64,000 nt of DNA, from contig JAYVIV010000136.1 in NCBI GenBank assembly GCA_043769985.1, positions 5,802 through 69,801 of the forward strand. Direction: 5' to 3'. The DNA is from Arcicella sp. (lineage in GTDB: Bacteria > Bacteroidota > Bacteroidia > Cytophagales > Spirosomataceae). Below are positions 3,095 to 9,076 of this stretch, one piece after another (the first letter of the stretch is position 1; every line of letters begins with the position of its first letter). Under the pieces are notes generated by a model. That model was not told the DNA's origin. It did not search any database and saw only the letters and a list, made by a program, of their open reading frames with translations. The position numbers and the translations under genes were made by a program.

Positions 3095-3220
3095 TTGTCT
3101 GGGCGACCCCGTCTGAATTAGGATTCATTGGATTATAGGATTTTTAAGATTATTGACTTCAATAATTTCGACAAATTAATCTAAAAAATCCATTAATCTG
3201 ACGAATCCAAATTCAGACAG
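3095..3220. repeat. Inverted-repeat element family A (TCTGAATTTGGATTC...GAATCCAAATTCAGA), copy 1
   Basis: Imperfect terminal inverted repeats; overlaps the helicase stop codon. Confidence 0.85.
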
Positions 3221-6200
3221 GTTTCTTCCAAAAATTACGACTAAAAATTCTTTCAAATTTCCACCCTTTCGCTCGTAAACCCGCAGGAATGTAGGCGAAT
3301 GTTTCCTTCGGAGAAAGGTGTTCGTAATATAAATCATCATCCGTTAAGATTAATGATTCATAGTTTTTACTGTTTTTTACAGTTATGTCTGCAAATGGTA
3401 ACTCTTTGATATACGAGCCATGGTCAGACTGTGCGCCCCAGTGTTCCCCACCGACCACTCCATTAATTAATTGCTCCTTCAATAACCACTCTGCCTGATA
3501 ATTTTCTGAGCGGTGGGCTTGTGGTTTATAATTTCCTTCTGATACTTTTAGGGCATATTCCAAATAGCTTTTCAGTAATCTTGGACCTTCATTTTGTGCT
3601 TCTTCCACTCGTAATTGATTCGGCAAAATACTACTGATAATATATATTTTTTCTCTGGCACGGGTAATGGCCACATTCAAGCGATTTTCACCTCCTTGTC
3701 CATTCAAAGAACCAAATTGCATTGCCATTTTGCCTTTTGCATCGGGAGCATATCCGATGGAAAAGATGATAATATCTCGTTCATCGCCTTGCACATTTTC
3801 TATGTTTTTTACGAACAGCCCCCTAACCCCCGAAGGGGGAACTTGCTCGTCCGATTTGGACGTTAATTTTGTGTCGAAAGTTCCCCCTTCGGGGGTTAGG
3901 GGGCTGAGTAAATCTTGAATCAAACCTTGTTGTTTGAAGTTAAAAGTAACAATTCCGATTGATTTTTCGGGAGATGTTTGATGAATATTTTTCACTAAAT
4001 CAATGACCCTTTCTGCCTCAATTTGATTGGTGCTATTTTCCCAAATTCCATCCACTTTAAAATACTGAATAGCGGGTTTTTGAAGATTAATCTCTTGAAA
4101 ATCAGGCAATAACGATAAAGTATTTTTATAAAAATATTGATTAGAAAAATCAATTAGGTCTAAAGATTTGCTTCGATAATGACCTCGCAGTTGCGTTTGC
4201 GGTAAATATTGACAAGCTAAATCCAAGAGCGAATCTACTTCTAATTCAGGGTTGTCATCCGCATCGTTTTCAAACCTAACTCTGTACAAATCACTGGGTT
4301 GCAATTGTTTGGAATCACCCGCAATGACCACTTGCTTACCCCTGTATAATGCAGGAATACCTTGTTCAGCAAAACATTGTGAGGCTTCATCGAAAATGAC
4401 CAAATCGAAAATACCCGAAGCGTCGGTAGCCCCCTGCCCCCCTTCAAGGGGGCAAAGTGGAAAAATCGCAGAAACTGTTTCGGGAGAAGCCAACCAACAG
4501 GGAACAAGTTTAAACAATTCTTCCGAATATTCAGTAATTAATTTCCGAACTGACCACAATTTACGTTTTTTACCAACTTGATGCTTCAAATCACGATAAG
4601 TTATGGTATTTTGAAGTCGATTTTTTTCTAAATTTTGATACGTTAATTCTCGGAGTTTCAACAATAAAATCTCTTGACTTAGGGTTTGTTTTTTCTGAAC
4701 TGAATCCTGCAAATCAATTTCTAACTGATTCATTTTCAAAGAACTAACGCTTCTTAGAATTGGATATTTTTCTTCAATATTTTCAATCCAAGCTAATTTT
4801 AAACTGTTCATAAAATGGTCGGTGGGGACACTGACCATTACGGACAGAAGTCTTTTTTCAGGTAAAAACAATTCAATCATCGACCATTCTGTACGACTAA
4901 AAGATGCCCTCAATGAATCAGATTCTTGCATTAAATCGAAGTTTTCTTTTAGGTAAGAATTAATGTTTGATAAATCTCCCGTGGCTTGTCTGGGCGACCC
5001 CGTGTTCACAAGTCCACACGCAAGAATATCTATTTGATTTTTAGATAAATAATTATTCCAAACTGCCTGAATATCAATTAATTGCTGTGATTGTTGAATT
5101 AAGAAATTGATTTGTTTTTGGAAATCGTTCCATGTTGTTGTTCCCGTTGTTGTCTGTGTCTTCACAGACAACCCCATAGTCGTCTGTGAAGACACAGACA
5201 ACAACGGGTATGACGGCAATATTTTCGTCAACGGTTTCCATATTTTATTCGCTTTTTCGGCTTGATATAATTGTTGAAAATTACGTTCAAACCAACGATA
5301 TCCTTTACGTAGCCATATTGGATCTTCATTCCTATCCAATTCGCCAAATAAAAATCCCCATTCATTCCACCATTTTTCTAAGCCAATACGATTTTGGATT
5401 CTTTGTTGTAATTTCTGTAAATCTTCCAACGAAAGACTTAAGCCATTCGCCCTCGTAACATTCTGAATATTAGCTTTTTGATTTGAAAAAAAACGCCAAA
5501 CTAATCCACCAATAACATTCGACTTTGTGTCAATTGCTTCGTTTAACTTTGACAGAAAAGGTAATAAATGGGAACTTGGTAAGGTAATTTCAATCCCTTG
5601 ACCGGCAAAAAATTGAGCCACTTGTGCTTCTAATTCACCAATTTTTGTAGTATTGAGTTTAATCTTTTCTTGAATATTTCTACTAAAAACCTGATAAATT
5701 TTCTCATTTCCAATTAATGATAACAAATTCTGAAAACGTTCTTTTTCCCCTGAAATCTTTTCCAATTCTTGAAAATTTAAGATGTTTTTCAGAATTTCTG
5801 ATGATTCATTTTCAAGGTTTTGTACAAAATCGTGTACTTCTTGAACAACTTTCAAAATCTGTGAAATTTCTGAATATTGACGGTTTTGAAAAGAGAGGCG
5901 AGATTGCCAAAAAGAAGCCTCTGTGACTTGTCTGGGGGATTCCGTGTTCACCAATCCACTTTTTAATTTATTTTCATAAACGCAATATCTTTCAAATTTC
6001 TTCGAAAAATCATTTATCTCATTGAATTTGAAGTGTTTATAATCTTCTTTCAAATTCAAAAAAGGTTGATTTGGCGAACTTGTTAAGTATAATTCTTTTA
6101 CGGAAACACCGCATACTGAAACATCAAAAAGGGCATCTTTGAACTCTTGTAAAGTATCAGAAATTTTATCAATTTGACGGCTTTCTTGGGTAAAATTTCG

Positions 6201-7502
6201 TTCCAAAAAAATTGCATCAAGGCTCTGATTTTTCTTTTGATAATCTTCGATTTGTTCAATTTGATTCAAAATCTGAGCGTACAAAGTTTTACGGTCATTC
6301 TTGAAGTCATGTACATTGCCTACAAACGGTCGCATTCCTGCTCGTGTGAGGCGTTCCTGCACAACATCGAGGGCGGCTCGTTTTTGAGAAACGACCAAAA
6401 CTTTTTTACCACGAGCCGTAAAATCCGCAATAAGATTACAAATTAATTGAGATTTCCCCGTCCCAGGCGGTCCTTGAACTACCATCGAAGCTCCCGCTTT
6501 TATTTGTTGCAAAGCCAATTCTTGAGAAGCATCAACGGCAAAAGGGGTTAGGAGGTTTTCTTCACGGGGTTTAGGGATTGGGGGATTTAGGGGTTGGGGA
6601 TTGGGGAAAAGGGACTCTAATCCCTCTTTCTCAAATTTTCTATCAATATTTTCTAAGTTTTCTACGCTGTCTTCCGTCTTCTTTTCTCCTTTTTCCTTAC
6701 TGCTTTCCTCCAATAACTCCTCATAATCAGGCACTAAAAATGATCCTGCCTGTGGAAAAATTCCTAAGACTGCTTGGGGGTATAATTTTAATTCTCCATT
6801 GTTTTCAGAAAGGTCTAAATCTGATTTTAATTGTTTCTCAAAATGTTGTAACCCATTGACAAAAATCTCTTTATTGAAATCAATTTTTAAAGAAGAATCT
6901 TTCAAAAATTCGTATAATTGTGTTCTAAATTCAAGCGAATCTTTTGAAAAATCTTCAAAACTATGTTCTAAAAATTCATCCGAAATTTGGAGTTGATTGA
7001 AGTGTGAATAAGCTAAAAGGAAACTACGATTGAGAATAGCCCCCTGACCCCCAGAGGGGGAAGTAAAAACGTACTCGGAAACTCCCCCTCTGGGGGTTAG
7101 GGTGGCTATCGTTACAGGAAAAAATAATAAAGGACAACGCACAACCGTTCCGTCCGAAAACTTGCCTTTAATGATGGGATAACCCACATATAAATCTTCC
7201 GAACCACGTTCCTCTTCAATAAATTTTTCAGTCCTTGAAATCTTGCGTAAATACTTACTTACTTGATTTACTCGCTCATATCGTGGGTCGTGAATTTCAC
7301 AAAGAGAAATAGCATTTTTTTGAGCGATTAATTGCTCTATGATGTTAAATGAAGGTTTATTTTGTAAAAAATCAAGCTCGTGAATATCTAAAAACTGTTC
7401 AGCAGAGAGGTTTAATAACAACAAAGATTTATTCCTTGAGGTTAGATTGGTTAGTCTTTTTTGATATGATTTTAGGATTTTTTGTAATTTATTCTCTTGC
7501 AT
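3213..7502 (-). CDS. DUF4011 / superfamily-1 (UPF1/Dna2-like) helicase carrying multiple in-frame repeat insertions
   Basis: QGPPGTGKS, FDEASQ, GDSKQLQP, HYRS, ENVQGDERD, RLNVAITRAR. ORF is open from 7538; likely start MQENKL at 7502. Confidence 0.85.
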   Translation of the reverse strand: MQENKLQKILKSYQKRLTNLTSRNKSLLLLNLSAEQFLDIHELDFLQNKPSFNIIEQLIAQKNAISLCEIHDPRYERVNQVSKYLRKISRTEKFIEEERGSEDLYVGYPIIKGKFSDGTVVRCPLLFFPVTIATLTPRGGVSEYVFTSPSGGQGAILNRSFLLAYSHFNQLQISDEFLEHSFEDFSKDSLEFRTQLYEFLKDSSLKIDFNKEIFVNGLQHFEKQLKSDLDLSENNGELKLYPQAVLGIFPQAGSFLVPDYEELLEESSKEKGEKKTEDSVENLENIDRKFEKEGLESLFPNPQPLNPPIPKPREENLLTPFAVDASQELALQQIKAGASMVVQGPPGTGKSQLICNLIADFTARGKKVLVVSQKRAALDVVQERLTRAGMRPFVGNVHDFKNDRKTLYAQILNQIEQIEDYQKKNQSLDAIFLERNFTQESRQIDKISDTLQEFKDALFDVSVCGVSVKELYLTSSPNQPFLNLKEDYKHFKFNEINDFSKKFERYCVYENKLKSGLVNTESPRQVTEASFWQSRLSFQNRQYSEISQILKVVQEVHDFVQNLENESSEILKNILNFQELEKISGEKERFQNLLSLIGNEKIYQVFSRNIQEKIKLNTTKIGELEAQVAQFFAGQGIEITLPSSHLLPFLSKLNEAIDTKSNVIGGLVWRFFSNQKANIQNVTRANGLSLSLEDLQKLQQRIQNRIGLEKWWNEWGFLFGELDRNEDPIWLRKGYRWFERNFQQLYQAEKANKIWKPLTKILPSYPLLSVSSQTTMGLSVKTQTTTGTTTWNDFQKQINFLIQQSQQLIDIQAVWNNYLSKNQIDILACGLVNTGSPRQATGDLSNINSYLKENFDLMQESDSLRASFSRTEWSMIELFLPEKRLLSVMVSVPTDHFMNSLKLAWIENIEEKYPILRSVSSLKMNQLEIDLQDSVQKKQTLSQEILLLKLRELTYQNLEKNRLQNTITYRDLKHQVGKKRKLWSVRKLITEYSEELFKLVPCWLASPETVSAIFPLCPLEGGQGATDASGIFDLVIFDEASQCFAEQGIPALYRGKQVVIAGDSKQLQPSDLYRVRFENDADDNPELEVDSLLDLACQYLPQTQLRGHYRSKSLDLIDFSNQYFYKNTLSLLPDFQEINLQKPAIQYFKVDGIWENSTNQIEAERVIDLVKNIHQTSPEKSIGIVTFNFKQQGLIQDLLSPLTPEGGTFDTKLTSKSDEQVPPSGVRGLFVKNIENVQGDERDIIIFSIGYAPDAKGKMAMQFGSLNGQGGENRLNVAITRAREKIYIISSILPNQLRVEEAQNEGPRLLKSYLEYALKVSEGNYKPQAHRSENYQAEWLLKEQLINGVVGGEHWGAQSDHGSYIKELPFADITVKNSKNYESLILTDDDLYYEHLSPKETFAYIPAGLRAKGWKFERIFSRNFWKKPV
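3816..3906. repeat. C/G-rich inverted-repeat element (family B) inside the helicase CDS
   Basis: 28-bp perfect IR CAGCCCCCTAACCCCCGAAGGGGGAACT with a 35-bp spacer. Confidence 0.9.
5143..5208. repeat. REP-doublet-like element (family C, GTG-RRGA-CAC hairpin) inside the helicase CDS
   Basis: 27-bp perfect IR CCCGTTGTTGTCTGTGTCTTCACAGAC with a 12-bp spacer. Confidence 0.9.
7039..7106. repeat. Family B element inside the helicase CDS
   Basis: GCCCCCTGACCCCCAGAGGGGGAAGT...ACTCCCCCTCTGGGGGTTAGGGTGGC. Confidence 0.85.
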
Positions 7503-7642
7503 TTTTTTTGTTAATATCTGCGAAAGTAATAACAGCAAAGTCGCTATGACGCTAAGATAAGTATGACTATGGTAATTATTTCATTCACTTAAATTTTTTA
7601 AAATCTTAGCATCCTTGTAGCTTTGTAGTATCACAATTTATT

Positions 7643-9076
7643 TCACAAGCCTAAACTCTTATTTACATACCACTGAATTTCGTCGTTATCACCATAATAT
7701 AGCCAATTCCAAGCAATTACGGCACTTTCTACTGAGAAATAAAAGATTGTCAGTACCGCAAAAAGCGTTAAATTTAAAGCTAAATATTTCAATAAATCAG
7801 GCTTATCCCTCTTAATAAAACTTAATCCCGTTGCCAGTAATAAAACGATTGGATAAAAAACGTGTGCTAATAATCTTGTGTGCATGAAAGCCCAGTCGTT
7901 ATACTTTATCAACCCCGTAAACATAATAGCAAAACTTCCCAAAAGCAAAATTAAACAAGTGGCTCGAAAAATTTTTTCCCAAAAAATTATAGTTCCATAT
8001 TGTTGCCTCCAAGTAAAAAACAACAACATAAATCCTTGTCTAATTAATAAAGCTAATCCAATGATAATCAGCATTGTAGGCAATATTCCTAAGATAAAAA
8101 AGATACTTCCAATATATCGAAAACCTGAATAGTTTCCGAATGTTAAATTATTTTCAAAATATTGGTGTTTATACCAAAAAGTTCCGTACATCAACAAAGG
8201 TGCTGAATGAATACTTGGATTTCGAGAGGATAAATTGGGGTCTTTGATAAGCGTGAAAATATTAATATTGTAATAACTCTGAGGTCCAATGTAAAAAATG
8301 GCATTGCTCGCCAGTGGAAAAATATCAAGATTATGCACAAAAATTTTATGTTGCTGCCATCTATAATTTTCTACGAATTTATAGGTGCCTGAAAACCCAA
8401 TTATCGCTCCACACAAAATCATCGTAGAGGTCATTTTCCAGAATGGCTTTCGGAAGTTTACTAAGAAAATTATTAACAAAACTACTGGTATAAAAGGAAT
8501 AAAAGTAGATTTCGTTAAAAGAGCTAACCCTGCTGATAGTGAGAGAATTACAACATTTTTTAGCGTCTGGTCTCTCAAATATTTAATGAGATTATAAAAA
8601 AACCACGTCCCCATCAAGACAGAAAGTGTATCGTTTGAAACGAATAATGAATAGATGAGATATGTTCCCAAAAAGGTGGCTAAAAGGAAACTTAAATTCC
8701 GAATCTCCACATCTTTAATCGTCATTTTTACTAATTTTGACATTAACCACAAGTTCAAACAAGACGTGATTAACCCATAAAATTCAACCATTTTCAATCC
8801 TCCAATTACATAAAAAGGAAGAGATGTCAAATAGTATAAGGGAGGATGACAGGCTAAAAAAAGTTCATTTGTACGGGGCAAACGATGGTTTTTAATTATG
8901 AAATCCAATACTTCATAGTGTGCATCAGCACCTTGAGGATTCATGACAATAAATACTAAGACCCGAAGTATAATTCCAAGCCAAAGGATTTTATTCAGTG
9001 AAGTCTCTTTACTGAAAAAGTTAGCTATTTCATTAAGCATTTTTGATATTTTTAGATTAAAGACGCTCAAATTCAA
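7643..9076 (-). CDS. Polytopic membrane glycosyltransferase (GT-C, ArnT/PMT-like)
   Basis: Many TM segments, DAHY...HPPLYY, NDTLS, LALLTKST; divergent from a GT2 gene. Confidence 0.6.
   Translation of the reverse strand: MNLSVFNLKISKMLNEIANFFSKETSLNKILWLGIILRVLVFIVMNPQGADAHYEVLDFIIKNHRLPRTNELFLACHPPLYYLTSLPFYVIGGLKMVEFYGLITSCLNLWLMSKLVKMTIKDVEIRNLSFLLATFLGTYLIYSLFVSNDTLSVLMGTWFFYNLIKYLRDQTLKNVVILSLSAGLALLTKSTFIPFIPVVLLIIFLVNFRKPFWKMTSTMILCGAIIGFSGTYKFVENYRWQQHKIFVHNLDIFPLASNAIFYIGPQSYYNINIFTLIKDPNLSSRNPSIHSAPLLMYGTFWYKHQYFENNLTFGNYSGFRYIGSIFFILGILPTMLIIIGLALLIRQGFMLLFFTWRQQYGTIIFWEKIFRATCLILLLGSFAIMFTGLIKYNDWAFMHTRLLAHVFYPIVLLLATGLSFIKRDKPDLLKYLALNLTLFAVLTIFYFSVESAVIAWNWLYYGDNDEIQWYVNKSLGL

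What the first reader, a model, noticed from the sequence alone, without database searches (positions are those of the whole stretch)
3213..7502. One helicase gene carries about nine in-frame palindromic or repeat insertions from several families
Seen in sequence: discrete repeats at 7039-7106 (family B; TLTPRGGVSEYVFTSPSGGQGA), 6566-6606 (G-rich heptamers; PNPQPLNPPIPKP), 5921-5960 and 4978-5016 (GLVNTESPRQVT / GLVNTGSPRQAT), 5143-5208 (27-bp perfect IR; LSVSSQTTMGLSVKTQTTTG), 4815-4838 (VMVSVPTDH), 4415-4455 (CPLEGGQGATDAS), 3816-3906 (28-bp perfect IR; SPLTPEGG...VPPSGVRG) and 3418-3460 (VVGGEHWGAQSDHG). The frame stays open for over 1400 codons, and the helicase motifs I, II, III and VI that I can read are intact. 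Established: in-frame palindrome insertion into genes is known for Rickettsia palindromic elements. Inference: several unrelated repeat families have invaded this gene repeatedly, selection kept only the frame-preserving events, and DNA hairpins became new peptide loops. This is the best candidate for an undescribed system in the window.
Basis: partly seen in the sequence, partly recalled or inferred. Interest (0 to 1): 0.88.

Follow-up and report, generated by a model that had tools for sequence, protein, structure and literature searches.

The report
Helicase gene riddled with translated hairpin repeats
A large helicase gene in a freshwater Arcicella bacterium has had about eight of its surface loops overwritten by short selfish DNA hairpins that stay in frame, and some of these hairpins are the end pieces of a small nuclease-carrying element that lives inside housekeeping genes.

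Summary

Eight are lineage-specific against 23 orthologues. Segment B is not an indel. A, E, F and H are strong hairpins. G is a single repeat arm. C and D are two copies of a piece of an intergenic repeat. I is a hairpin with a second piece nested inside it.

The gene is under purifying selection (dN/dS 0.12-0.16). The eight inserts covered by the usable model lie in low-confidence loops. It is the most GC-island-rich gene in the genome (5 islands, 0.41 expected). Sibling species carry different repeat families in the same loops, often replacing native residues.

The family of A, H and G has 90 doublets; 54 lie in genes, 41 of those in one reading frame, with no target-site duplications. Its arms also bracket DUF559 (Vsr-like) endonuclease modules that sit in frame in metH, and related arms do the same in ileS. 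The short hairpins therefore look like gene-less miniatures of that cassette.

In-frame palindromes are a known kind (Rickettsia RPEs, intragenic REPs). The density, the reuse of the same loops and the DUF559 partner are new.

Translation and mobility are inferred.

The parts
3213..7538 (-). SF1 (Upf1-like) helicase gene with DUF4011, AAA_11 and AAA_12. It is 1441 codons from TTG; the likely start is the ATG at 7502 (1429 aa).
   Evidence: dN/dS 0.12-0.16.
7037..7108 (-). Insert A: a Fam1 hairpin doublet (arms CCCCCAGAGGGGG / CCCCCTCTGGGGG). The peptide TLTPRGGVSEYVFTSPSGGQGA replaces the conserved native QKDAQIWQLQTRDES.
6566..6606 (-). Segment B: a C-rich heptamer tract (CCCCAAT-like) encoding PNPQPLNPPIPKP. 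It has the same length as in the orthologues, so it is not an indel.
5921..5960 (-). Insert C: a 40-nt unit about 75% identical to D, encoding GLVNTESPRQVT. It lies in the most variable loop, where at least six sibling species carry different elements.
5143..5208 (-). Insert E: two inverted copies of the 24-bp hairpin GTTGTCTGTG-NNNN-CACAGACAAC, read as LLSVSSQTT / LSVKTQTTT.
4978..5016 (-). Insert D: a 39-nt unit whose core TTGTCTGGGCGACCCCGT is the end motif of a 40-copy, mostly intergenic repeat. Peptide GLVNTGSPRQAT.
4815..4838 (-). Insert F: a clean 24-nt hairpin insertion, ATGGTCAGTGTCCCCACCGACCAT (MVSVPTDH). It is present in four species scattered over the clade and absent from the sister species.
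4414..4455 (-). Insert G: a single extended Fam1 arm (CCCGAAGCGTCGGTAGCCCCC...), peptide CPLEGGQGATDASG, 8 residues upstream of motif II.
3816..3906 (-). Insert H: a Fam1 doublet with a 29-bp perfect stem. The peptide SPLTPEGGTFDTKLTSKSDEQVPPSGVRGL replaces the native 11-residue loop.
3418..3460 (-). Insert I: a C-type hairpin shared with the sister species (VVSVDTDH there), plus a nested piece ACTGGGGCGCACAGTC of a 19-copy intergenic repeat.
3095..3220 (.). An intergenic inverted-repeat element of about 125 bp with the same end motif as D. Its right end supplies the last two codons and the TGA stop of the helicase.

Best explanation
The gene is a functional, conserved helicase. Its permissive surface loops have been colonised again and again by short, GC-rich, self-complementary selfish repeats from at least four dispersed families.

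Shown:
- The segments are lineage-specific.
- They match dispersed genomic copies.
- They keep the frame.
- Those covered by the usable model lie between secondary-structure elements.
- Sibling species carry different elements in the same loops.
- The gene stays under purifying selection.

Inferred:
- Copies land widely, and selection keeps only those that are stop-free, frame-preserving and located in loops.
- The survivors are translated as Pro/Gly/Ser-rich excursions.
- Later arrivals insert into or overwrite earlier ones, which would explain the loss of native loop residues and the nested structures.

For the largest family (Fam1: inserts A, H and G), the arms are the same terminal inverted repeats that bracket DUF559 (Vsr-like PD-(D/E)xK) endonuclease modules. 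These modules lack their own start and stop codons and sit in frame in metH. A related family does the same in ileS. The short doublets are therefore most likely gene-less miniature derivatives of that cassette.

I infer, without a test, that the DUF559 nuclease nicks or cuts at the arm structures or at target sites, and that spread occurs by repair-mediated copying. This would fit the absence of target-site duplications and the replacement-type junctions. The drivers of the 24-bp hairpins (E, F, I) and of the C/D unit are unknown.
For: Lineage-specific segments:
- The tree puts G000 as sister to G001, which lacks A, C, D, F, G and H.
- Different families occupy the same loops. Site A has Fam1 in G000 and G007 with unrelated spacers, and Fam2 in L014. 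Site C has at least six different states.

Dispersed copies:
- Fam1 has 90 doublets, 54 in genes and 36 intergenic.
- 41 of the 54 genic copies are in one frame. A stop-codon filter applied to intergenic-like copies predicts 11:26:16.5 and the observed split is 8:41:5, chi-square p = 2e-4.
- Arm-to-arm length is divisible by 3 in 37/54 genic against 10/36 intergenic copies.
- Target-site duplications do not exceed the control.
- Copy number differs sharply between genomes: 49 exact pattern matches in G000, against 0-11 in 19 other same-genus genomes and near zero in about 140 other Spirosomaceae.

State of the gene:
- dN/dS is 0.12-0.16.
- In the AF2 model of residues 300-1441, all eight inserts in that range overlap segments with pLDDT < 50 between helices or strands.
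- The helicase has the most GC islands of any gene, 5 against 0.41 expected.

DUF559 link:
- Only the terminal 40-60 nt of the cassettes are multicopy.
- Homologues elsewhere in Bacteroidota show the same arm peptides at the same metH site.

Assembly: identical DNA over 10,290 nt in another assembly.
Against:
- No DUF559-bearing copy occurs in any of the 24 helicase sequences. The link therefore rests on shared arms elsewhere in the genome.
- DUF559 could instead be cargo, or a homing gene that targets the space between arms, rather than the enzyme that moves them.
- Fam2 doublets are mostly intergenic (11/57 genic). Coding tolerance is thus family-specific.
- The AF2 models are mediocre: mean pLDDT 61.9 for residues 300-1441 and 51.4 for the N-terminal part. 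Inserts absent from the alignment would score low in any case.
- The patchy distribution across species could reflect recombination between species rather than repeated insertion.
Confidence: 0.75

Rival explanations
1. The hairpins are REP/REPIN-type elements moved as single-stranded hairpins by a Y1 (HUH) transposase of the RAYT or IS200 type. On this reading DUF559 is unrelated cargo.
For: - The inverted doublet architecture with no target-site duplications fits HUH chemistry.
- The genome encodes six Y1_Tnp hits. Three of them are flanked by their own palindromic repeats.
- The 24-bp hairpins E, F and I have no other candidate driver.
Against: - None of the six Y1 genes is flanked by Fam1 or Fam2 arms.
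- Three of the four DUF559 modules in the genome sit exactly between such arms, each arm family with its own DUF559 variant.
Confidence: 0.15
2. The loop turnover is adaptive for the host. The helicase resembles anti-phage helicases (ProA, Hhe, PDC-S37), and repeat-driven loop diversification helps it escape phage inhibitors.
For: - Below-cut-off matches to ProA, Hhe and PDC-S37.
- The gene with the most GC islands in the genome.
- Different elements in the same loops of sibling species.
Against: - The gene is single-copy and present in 28 of 31 related genomes, like a core gene.
- The same repeats also sit in many other genes; Fam1 alone is in 52 genes.
- There is no sign of positive selection (dN/dS 0.12-0.16).
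Confidence: 0.07
3. The inserts are not part of the mature product. They are removed or bypassed at the RNA or protein level.
For: Very stable mRNA hairpins, down to -69 kcal/mol, would hinder ribosomes.
Against: - Removal would not need frame preservation, yet genic copies are enriched for lengths divisible by 3, for a single frame and for the absence of stops.
- The arms are far too short for intein splicing blocks. Pfam finds only DUF559 and MTES_1575 in the full cassettes.
Confidence: 0.04
4. The pattern is an assembly or binning artefact of a metagenome-assembled genome.
For: The genome is a 302-contig MAG, and reads could not be examined.
Against: - The exact protein is on three contigs of different lengths. 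A 190-kb ENA contig is identical over 10,290 nt.
- Independent MAGs of sibling species show the same classes of insert in intact ORFs.
- Only 3 of 604 contig ends carry Fam1 arms.
Confidence: 0.02

Closest known systems
Rickettsia palindromic elements (RPEs; Ogata et al. 2000 and 2002, as summarised in PMC10969869)
   Same: - Short palindromic repeats of several families are inserted in frame in unrelated genes.
- Each family has a preferred reading frame and a conserved peptide.
- The insertions are compatible with protein folding.
   Different: - The host is a free-living bacterium of a different phylum, with unrelated sequences.
- The elements are shorter (24-95 bp against about 100-150 bp).
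- Up to eight or nine lie in one gene.
- The same loops are re-hit in sibling species.
- Native residues are replaced.
- A nuclease-bearing full-length form exists.
Intragenic GTAG/CGTC REPs and REPIN doublets (Di Nocera et al. 2013, PMC3733652; Bertels and Rainey 2011, PMC3116915)
   Same: - Inverted doublets that encode 20-30 residues inside ORFs.
- Double insertions in one gene.
- A noted excess in DNA-repair and helicase genes.
- No target-site duplications.
   Different: - No RAYT gene is flanked by these arms.
- The GTAG/CGTC tag definitions are not met.
- 60% of Fam1 doublets are genic, whereas REPs are mainly extragenic.
BoxC / PIT / intrastrand triplex motif repeats (PMC4666352)
   Same: Fam1, Fam2 and Fam3 arms share the three-block layout of pyrimidine block, N3-6, purine block, N3, purine block. 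The TTA second loop is also shared.
   Different: - The E. coli consensus has no exact match here.
- The E. coli copies are strictly intergenic and were not linked to any mobile gene.
Vsr-like homing endonucleases in fractured genes with split inteins (Dassa et al. 2009, PMC2677866), and inteins in general
   Same: A small Vsr-fold nuclease gene sits inside conserved housekeeping genes at recurrent sites.
   Different: There are no intein or intron parts. The cassette appears to stay in the host protein, joined by linkers that the arms encode. It also has many gene-less miniature derivatives.

Membership tests
Rickettsia palindromic elements (RPE) | Palindromic repeat inserted in frame in protein-coding genes, with a family-specific reading frame | tested here: met
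   54 of 90 Fam1 doublets are genic, and 41 of those are in one frame. The E-type hairpins all read LSVxxQTT.
Rickettsia palindromic elements (RPE) | Sequence membership in RPE-1 to RPE-10 of Rickettsia | not tested
   No RPE sequences were fetched. The host phylum differs, so I claim only that it works like an RPE.
REPIN / REP-RAYT system | Two REP units in inverted orientation that form one long hairpin | tested here: met
REPIN / REP-RAYT system | A cognate RAYT (Y1 transposase) gene flanked by the same REPs | tested here: not met
   There are six Y1_Tnp hits. Three are flanked by other repeats and none by Fam1 or Fam2 arms.
REPIN / REP-RAYT system | Predominantly extragenic location | tested here: not met
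   60% of Fam1 doublets and 73% of Fam1 arms are genic.
MITE (transposase-dependent miniature element) | Terminal inverted repeats shared with a longer coding element | tested here: met
   The cassettes in metH, ileS and the ORF on C100 share only their terminal 40-60 nt with the many short copies. The coding element carries DUF559, not a transposase.
MITE (transposase-dependent miniature element) | Target-site duplications | tested here: not met
   85 of 90 copies have no direct repeat of 2 nt or more at the palindrome ends. This is no higher than in the offset control.
BoxC / PIT / triplex motif repeats | Three-block layout: Y-block, N3-6, R-block, N3, R-block | tested here: met
   C5-N3-G5-N3-G5 occurs 153 times against 0 in the shuffle. 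Fam2 and Fam3 analogues occur 26 and 21 times.
BoxC / PIT / triplex motif repeats | E. coli TMECO consensus CCCTCNCCC N3-6 GGGNGAGGG N3 GGGNGAGGG | tested here: not met
   0 exact matches, and 3 with up to 3 substitutions.
Intein | Hint/splicing domain flanking the endonuclease | tested here: not met
   The full cassettes hit only DUF559 and MTES_1575 in Pfam. The arms encode about 10 residues each.
Anti-phage helicases ProA / Hhe (NCBIfam equivalogs) | Score above the curated cut-off | tested here: not met
   ProA scores 517 bits against a cut-off of 1500. Hhe scores 337 against 2000.

The most novel reading that the evidence does not exclude
Bacteroidota carry a so far undescribed class of selfish element, a 'non-splicing intein'. 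It is a DUF559 (Vsr-like) endonuclease module without its own start or stop codon, bracketed by GC-rich three-block hairpin arms that encode flexible Pro/Gly linkers. It lives in frame inside housekeeping genes at recurrent sites. It also sheds gene-less miniature doublets and single arms. In lineages such as this Arcicella, these miniatures have multiplied and keep rewriting protein surface loops; this helicase is the most heavily rewritten gene in the genome.
Probability: 0.45. Interest if true: 0.85.

Novelty: new variant of a known kind. Interest (0 to 1): 0.72.

Why it matters
In-frame selfish palindromes have been treated as a Rickettsia oddity, with scattered intragenic REPs elsewhere. 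Three things stand out here.

- A free-living Bacteroidota lineage shows the process at high density, and the elements differ between sibling species.
- Selection channels insertions into the same few permissive loops, which yields a natural map of where a large helicase tolerates insertions.
- There is a concrete candidate partner enzyme, DUF559. Its function is unknown, and the proposed role can be tested biochemically.

If the partner is confirmed, this would give a role to a very common domain of unknown function. It would also give an origin to BoxC-like three-block repeats, and show a route by which mobile DNA creates new protein loops.

Tried and rejected
- Greedy assembly of frequent 12-mers was swamped by AT-rich low complexity.
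- An 11-mer repeat mask was too permissive. Its hits were 82% genic, about the coding fraction. The looser GC-island threshold (15/20) was no better than chance.
- I searched for long elements bounded by Fam1 arms 300-6000 nt apart. This found only neighbouring independent copies. The DUF559 cassettes came to light later, from reading host proteins.
- No RAYT association was found for Fam1 or Fam2.
- No target-site duplications were found.
- A stop-codon filter explains only part of the frame bias.
- The N-terminal AF2 model is too poor to place insert A firmly (mean pLDDT 51).
- Two DUF559-bearing loci in other organisms have frame breaks, so they say nothing about translation.
- Reads, RNA and a DUF559 census in relatives could therefore not be done.
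- Literature searches for DUF559 as a mobile element, or for such repeats in Cytophagales or Arcicella, found nothing.

Full report
**What is there**

Window 3213-7538 (-) is a single open frame of 1441 codons. A likely ATG start at 7502 gives a 1429-aa protein, and that protein is on record in public collections. Pfam finds DUF4011, AAA_11 and AAA_12, which marks an Upf1-like SF1 helicase. The closest solved relatives by sequence are IGHMBP2 and Sen1. NCBIfam and PADLOC give long matches, below their cut-offs, to the anti-phage helicases ProA, Hhe and PDC-S37. The last 115 residues give a weak match to the Vsr/DUF559-like fold REase_MTES_1575 (E = 0.004).

Record titles of orthologous loci place the genome in Arcicella (Spirosomaceae, Cytophagales). 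The genome is a 5.16-Mb, 302-contig MAG with 35.8% G+C.

**Checking the nine segments**

All nine are at the stated coordinates with the stated peptides. I aligned the protein and its codons first with 8 and then with 23 orthologues.

- A, C, D, E, F, G, H and I all fall in alignment gaps or in stretches that cannot be aligned.
- B has the same length as in the nearest species. It is a degenerate C-rich heptamer tract, not an indel.

Folding the mRNA sense strand shows the following.

- A, E, H and F are strong hairpins (z = -8.6, -14.5, -12 and -4.2).
- G is marginal (z = -2).
- B, C, D and I fold no better than shuffles.

**What each segment is**

- **A and H** are doublets of one family, here called Fam1. 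Each has the form AGCCCCC-(TAA|CCG)-CCCCC-GA(A/T)-GGGGG ... spacer ... mirror image.
- **G** is a single extended Fam1 arm. Its core CGAAGCGTCGGTxGCCC has 16 copies, 13 of them genic.
- **E** is two inverted copies of the 24-bp hairpin GTTGTCTGTG-NNNN-CACAGACAAC. Its genic copies elsewhere all read LSVxxQTT.
- **F** is a clean 24-nt insertion of a related hairpin.
- **I** is the same kind of hairpin, shared with the sister species. It also carries a nested 15-nt piece of a 19-copy intergenic repeat.
- **C and D** are about 75% identical copies of a unit whose core TTGTCTGGGCGACCCCGT is the end motif of a 40-copy, mainly intergenic element. A full copy of that element abuts the gene and supplies its last two codons and stop codon.

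**Not chance, not an artefact, not a dead gene**

- The genome holds 240 perfect GC-rich hairpins against 17 in a local shuffle.
- It holds 153 Fam1 arms against 0 in the shuffle.
- The exact protein is on three contigs of different lengths. A 190-kb ENA contig is identical over 10,290 nt.
- dN/dS against five relatives is 0.12-0.16, the same as between relatives that lack these inserts.
- All helicase motifs are invariant.
- By a strict GC-island measure (at least 18 of 24 bases G or C), the helicase has 5 islands where 0.41 are expected. That is the highest count of any gene in the genome.

**Where the inserts sit in the protein**

An AlphaFold2 model of residues 300-1441 reached mean pLDDT 61.9 and pTM 0.37. 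It places B, C, E, D, F, G, H and I in segments with pLDDT below 50 that lie between helices or strands. Because the inserts are absent from the alignment, low confidence is expected there. The useful point is that they fall between secondary-structure elements. The N-terminal model is poor (pLDDT 51). It only suggests that A lies at a beta-hairpin tip.

**Recurrence and replacement**

A maximum-likelihood tree puts this genome as sister to G001, inside a seven-species clade. G001 lacks A, C, D, F, G and H. The same loops are filled by other elements in other species.

- **Site A:** G007 has a Fam1 doublet with an unrelated spacer, and L014 has a Fam2 element.
- **Site C:** at least six different occupants.
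- **Site H:** Fam1-like in G007, and a hairpin plus a Fam2 arm in L014.
- **Site F:** the 24-nt hairpin is present in four scattered species and absent from their sister species.

Several events remove native residues. A replaces the genus-wide conserved QKDAQIWQLQTRDES. H replaces the whole 11-residue native loop. This fits repeated arrival into a small set of permissive loops, or into elements already resident there. Recombination between species cannot be excluded.

**Genome-wide behaviour of Fam1**

- There are 90 doublets, 54 in genes and 36 intergenic, spread over 52 genes.
- Arm-to-arm length is divisible by 3 in 37/54 genic against 10/36 intergenic copies (Fisher p = 2e-4).
- 41/54 genic copies use one frame, reading P[PL][AT]P[DE]GG ... 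PPSG[AV][GR]G.
- A pure stop-codon filter applied to intergenic-like copies predicts 11:26:16.5. The observed split is 8:41:5 (p = 2e-4). Some selection at the peptide level, or a preference in insertion phase, is therefore needed.
- Target-site duplications do not exceed the control.
- The family differs sharply in copy number between genomes: 49 exact pattern matches here, 11 in each of two relatives, 0-4 in the rest of the genus, and almost none in about 140 other Spirosomaceae genomes.

**The partner**

I read the host proteins of multi-hit genes. Methionine synthase carries Fam1 arms around a 130-residue module with no start or stop codon of its own. Isoleucyl-tRNA synthetase carries Fam2 arms around a similar module. 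Both modules are DUF559, a Vsr-like PD-(D/E)xK nuclease domain (E = 6e-37 and 4e-36).

- The genome has four DUF559 copies. Three are in frame in large ORFs and sit exactly between such arms.
- Only the terminal 40-60 nt of these cassettes are multicopy. This is the relation expected between an autonomous element and its miniatures.
- A database search with the metH module found 777 homologues. Many are fused to fragments of MetH, MetRS, IleRS or IspG.
- Wherever the called protein runs past the nuclease core, Pro/Gly-rich arm-like peptides appear, followed by host sequence. The same metH site (...IEEEK | cassette | ILMATVKGDVHDIGKNIV) recurs at least four times.
- The arrangement also occurs in a complete Flavobacterium genome and in a metagenomic ileS, although both have frame breaks.

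**Comparison with known systems**

- In-frame palindromes are established for Rickettsia RPEs (PMC10969869).
- Intragenic GTAG/CGTC REPs, often as doublets encoding 20-30 residues and notably in repair and helicase genes, are also published (PMC3733652).
- The arms share the three-block layout of BoxC/PIT/triplex-motif repeats (PMC4666352), but not their consensus.
- No Y1 transposase gene in this genome is flanked by these arms.
- Vsr-like homing endonucleases are known, but in the company of split inteins (PMC2677866).
- I found no paper that describes DUF559 cassettes with hairpin arms living in frame.
- Earlier notes of this scan report the same cassette type in other genomes. They are unchecked AI notes and were read after I had found the link here. 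I count them as agreement, not as evidence.

**Verdict**

- There are eight inserts, not nine.
- Many are replacements rather than clean insertions.
- The kind is already known.

The new features are the density in one gene, the reuse of the same loops across sibling species, and the DUF559 cassette as the probable parent of one family. Translation, mobility and the enzyme's role remain inferences.

Noticed in passing
G000 C192:6837-7303 (metH), outside the window: A DUF559 endonuclease module without its own start or stop sits in frame in the linker before the B12-binding domain of methionine synthase, bracketed by Fam1 arms. The same site is occupied in other Bacteroidota.
   Followed up: partly
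G000 C11:about 8040-8540 (ileS) and C100:1665-2258 (1211-aa ORF); free-standing copy at C14:8244-8558: Two more DUF559 modules lie in frame in large ORFs and are bracketed by Fam2 arms (CCTCACCCCC..CCCCTCTCC..GGAGAGGGG). A fourth copy is a free-standing 144-aa ORF with a Fam2-like arm on one side only.
   Followed up: partly
G000 C192 (metH reactivation domain): Two inverted single Fam1 arms (SPLTPRGGT and PPLGAGGAS) flank about 65 residues of native MetH sequence. Arms can therefore occur singly or bracket host DNA.
   Followed up: no
G000 C116:1820-2021 (721-aa paralogous SF1 helicase): Seven E-type 18-26-bp hairpins lie within about 200 nt, inside another helicase gene. All are read in the LSVxxQTT frame.
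   Followed up: no
window 3095-3220: An inverted-repeat element of about 125 bp abuts the helicase. Its terminal repeat provides the last two codons (PV) and the TGA stop.
   Followed up: partly
G000 C84:26000-26925, C128:2160-3000, C68:15630-15715: Three Y1 transposase (RAYT-like) genes are each flanked by their own palindromic repeats: AACAGGTTGGAAACCTGTT (about 35 copies), CGTCACTCGCCAGAGGCAAGCGA (about 12) and TACTGTAGCTCGAAATAG (about 18). These are REPtron-like units separate from Fam1 and Fam2.
   Followed up: no
G000, genome-wide k-mer counts: Two repeats of about 37 and 30 nt look like CRISPR repeats: GTTTCAATCCATTTATGCCCAAAGCAGGCGTTGGAAG with about 165 copies, and CTTTTAATCGTACCGTGAAGGAATTGAAAT with about 116. 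This suggests very large arrays.
   Followed up: no
window 3216-3560 (-): The C-terminal 115 residues of the helicase give a weak match to REase_MTES_1575 (E = 0.004, below cut-off). The cassette nucleases hit the same family, so the helicase may itself end in a Vsr/DUF559-like nuclease domain.
   Followed up: partly
L045 (Flavobacterium davisii CP067378, metH region): metH carries two DUF559 modules and several frame changes. This is either a long-read indel artefact or a pseudogene.
   Followed up: no
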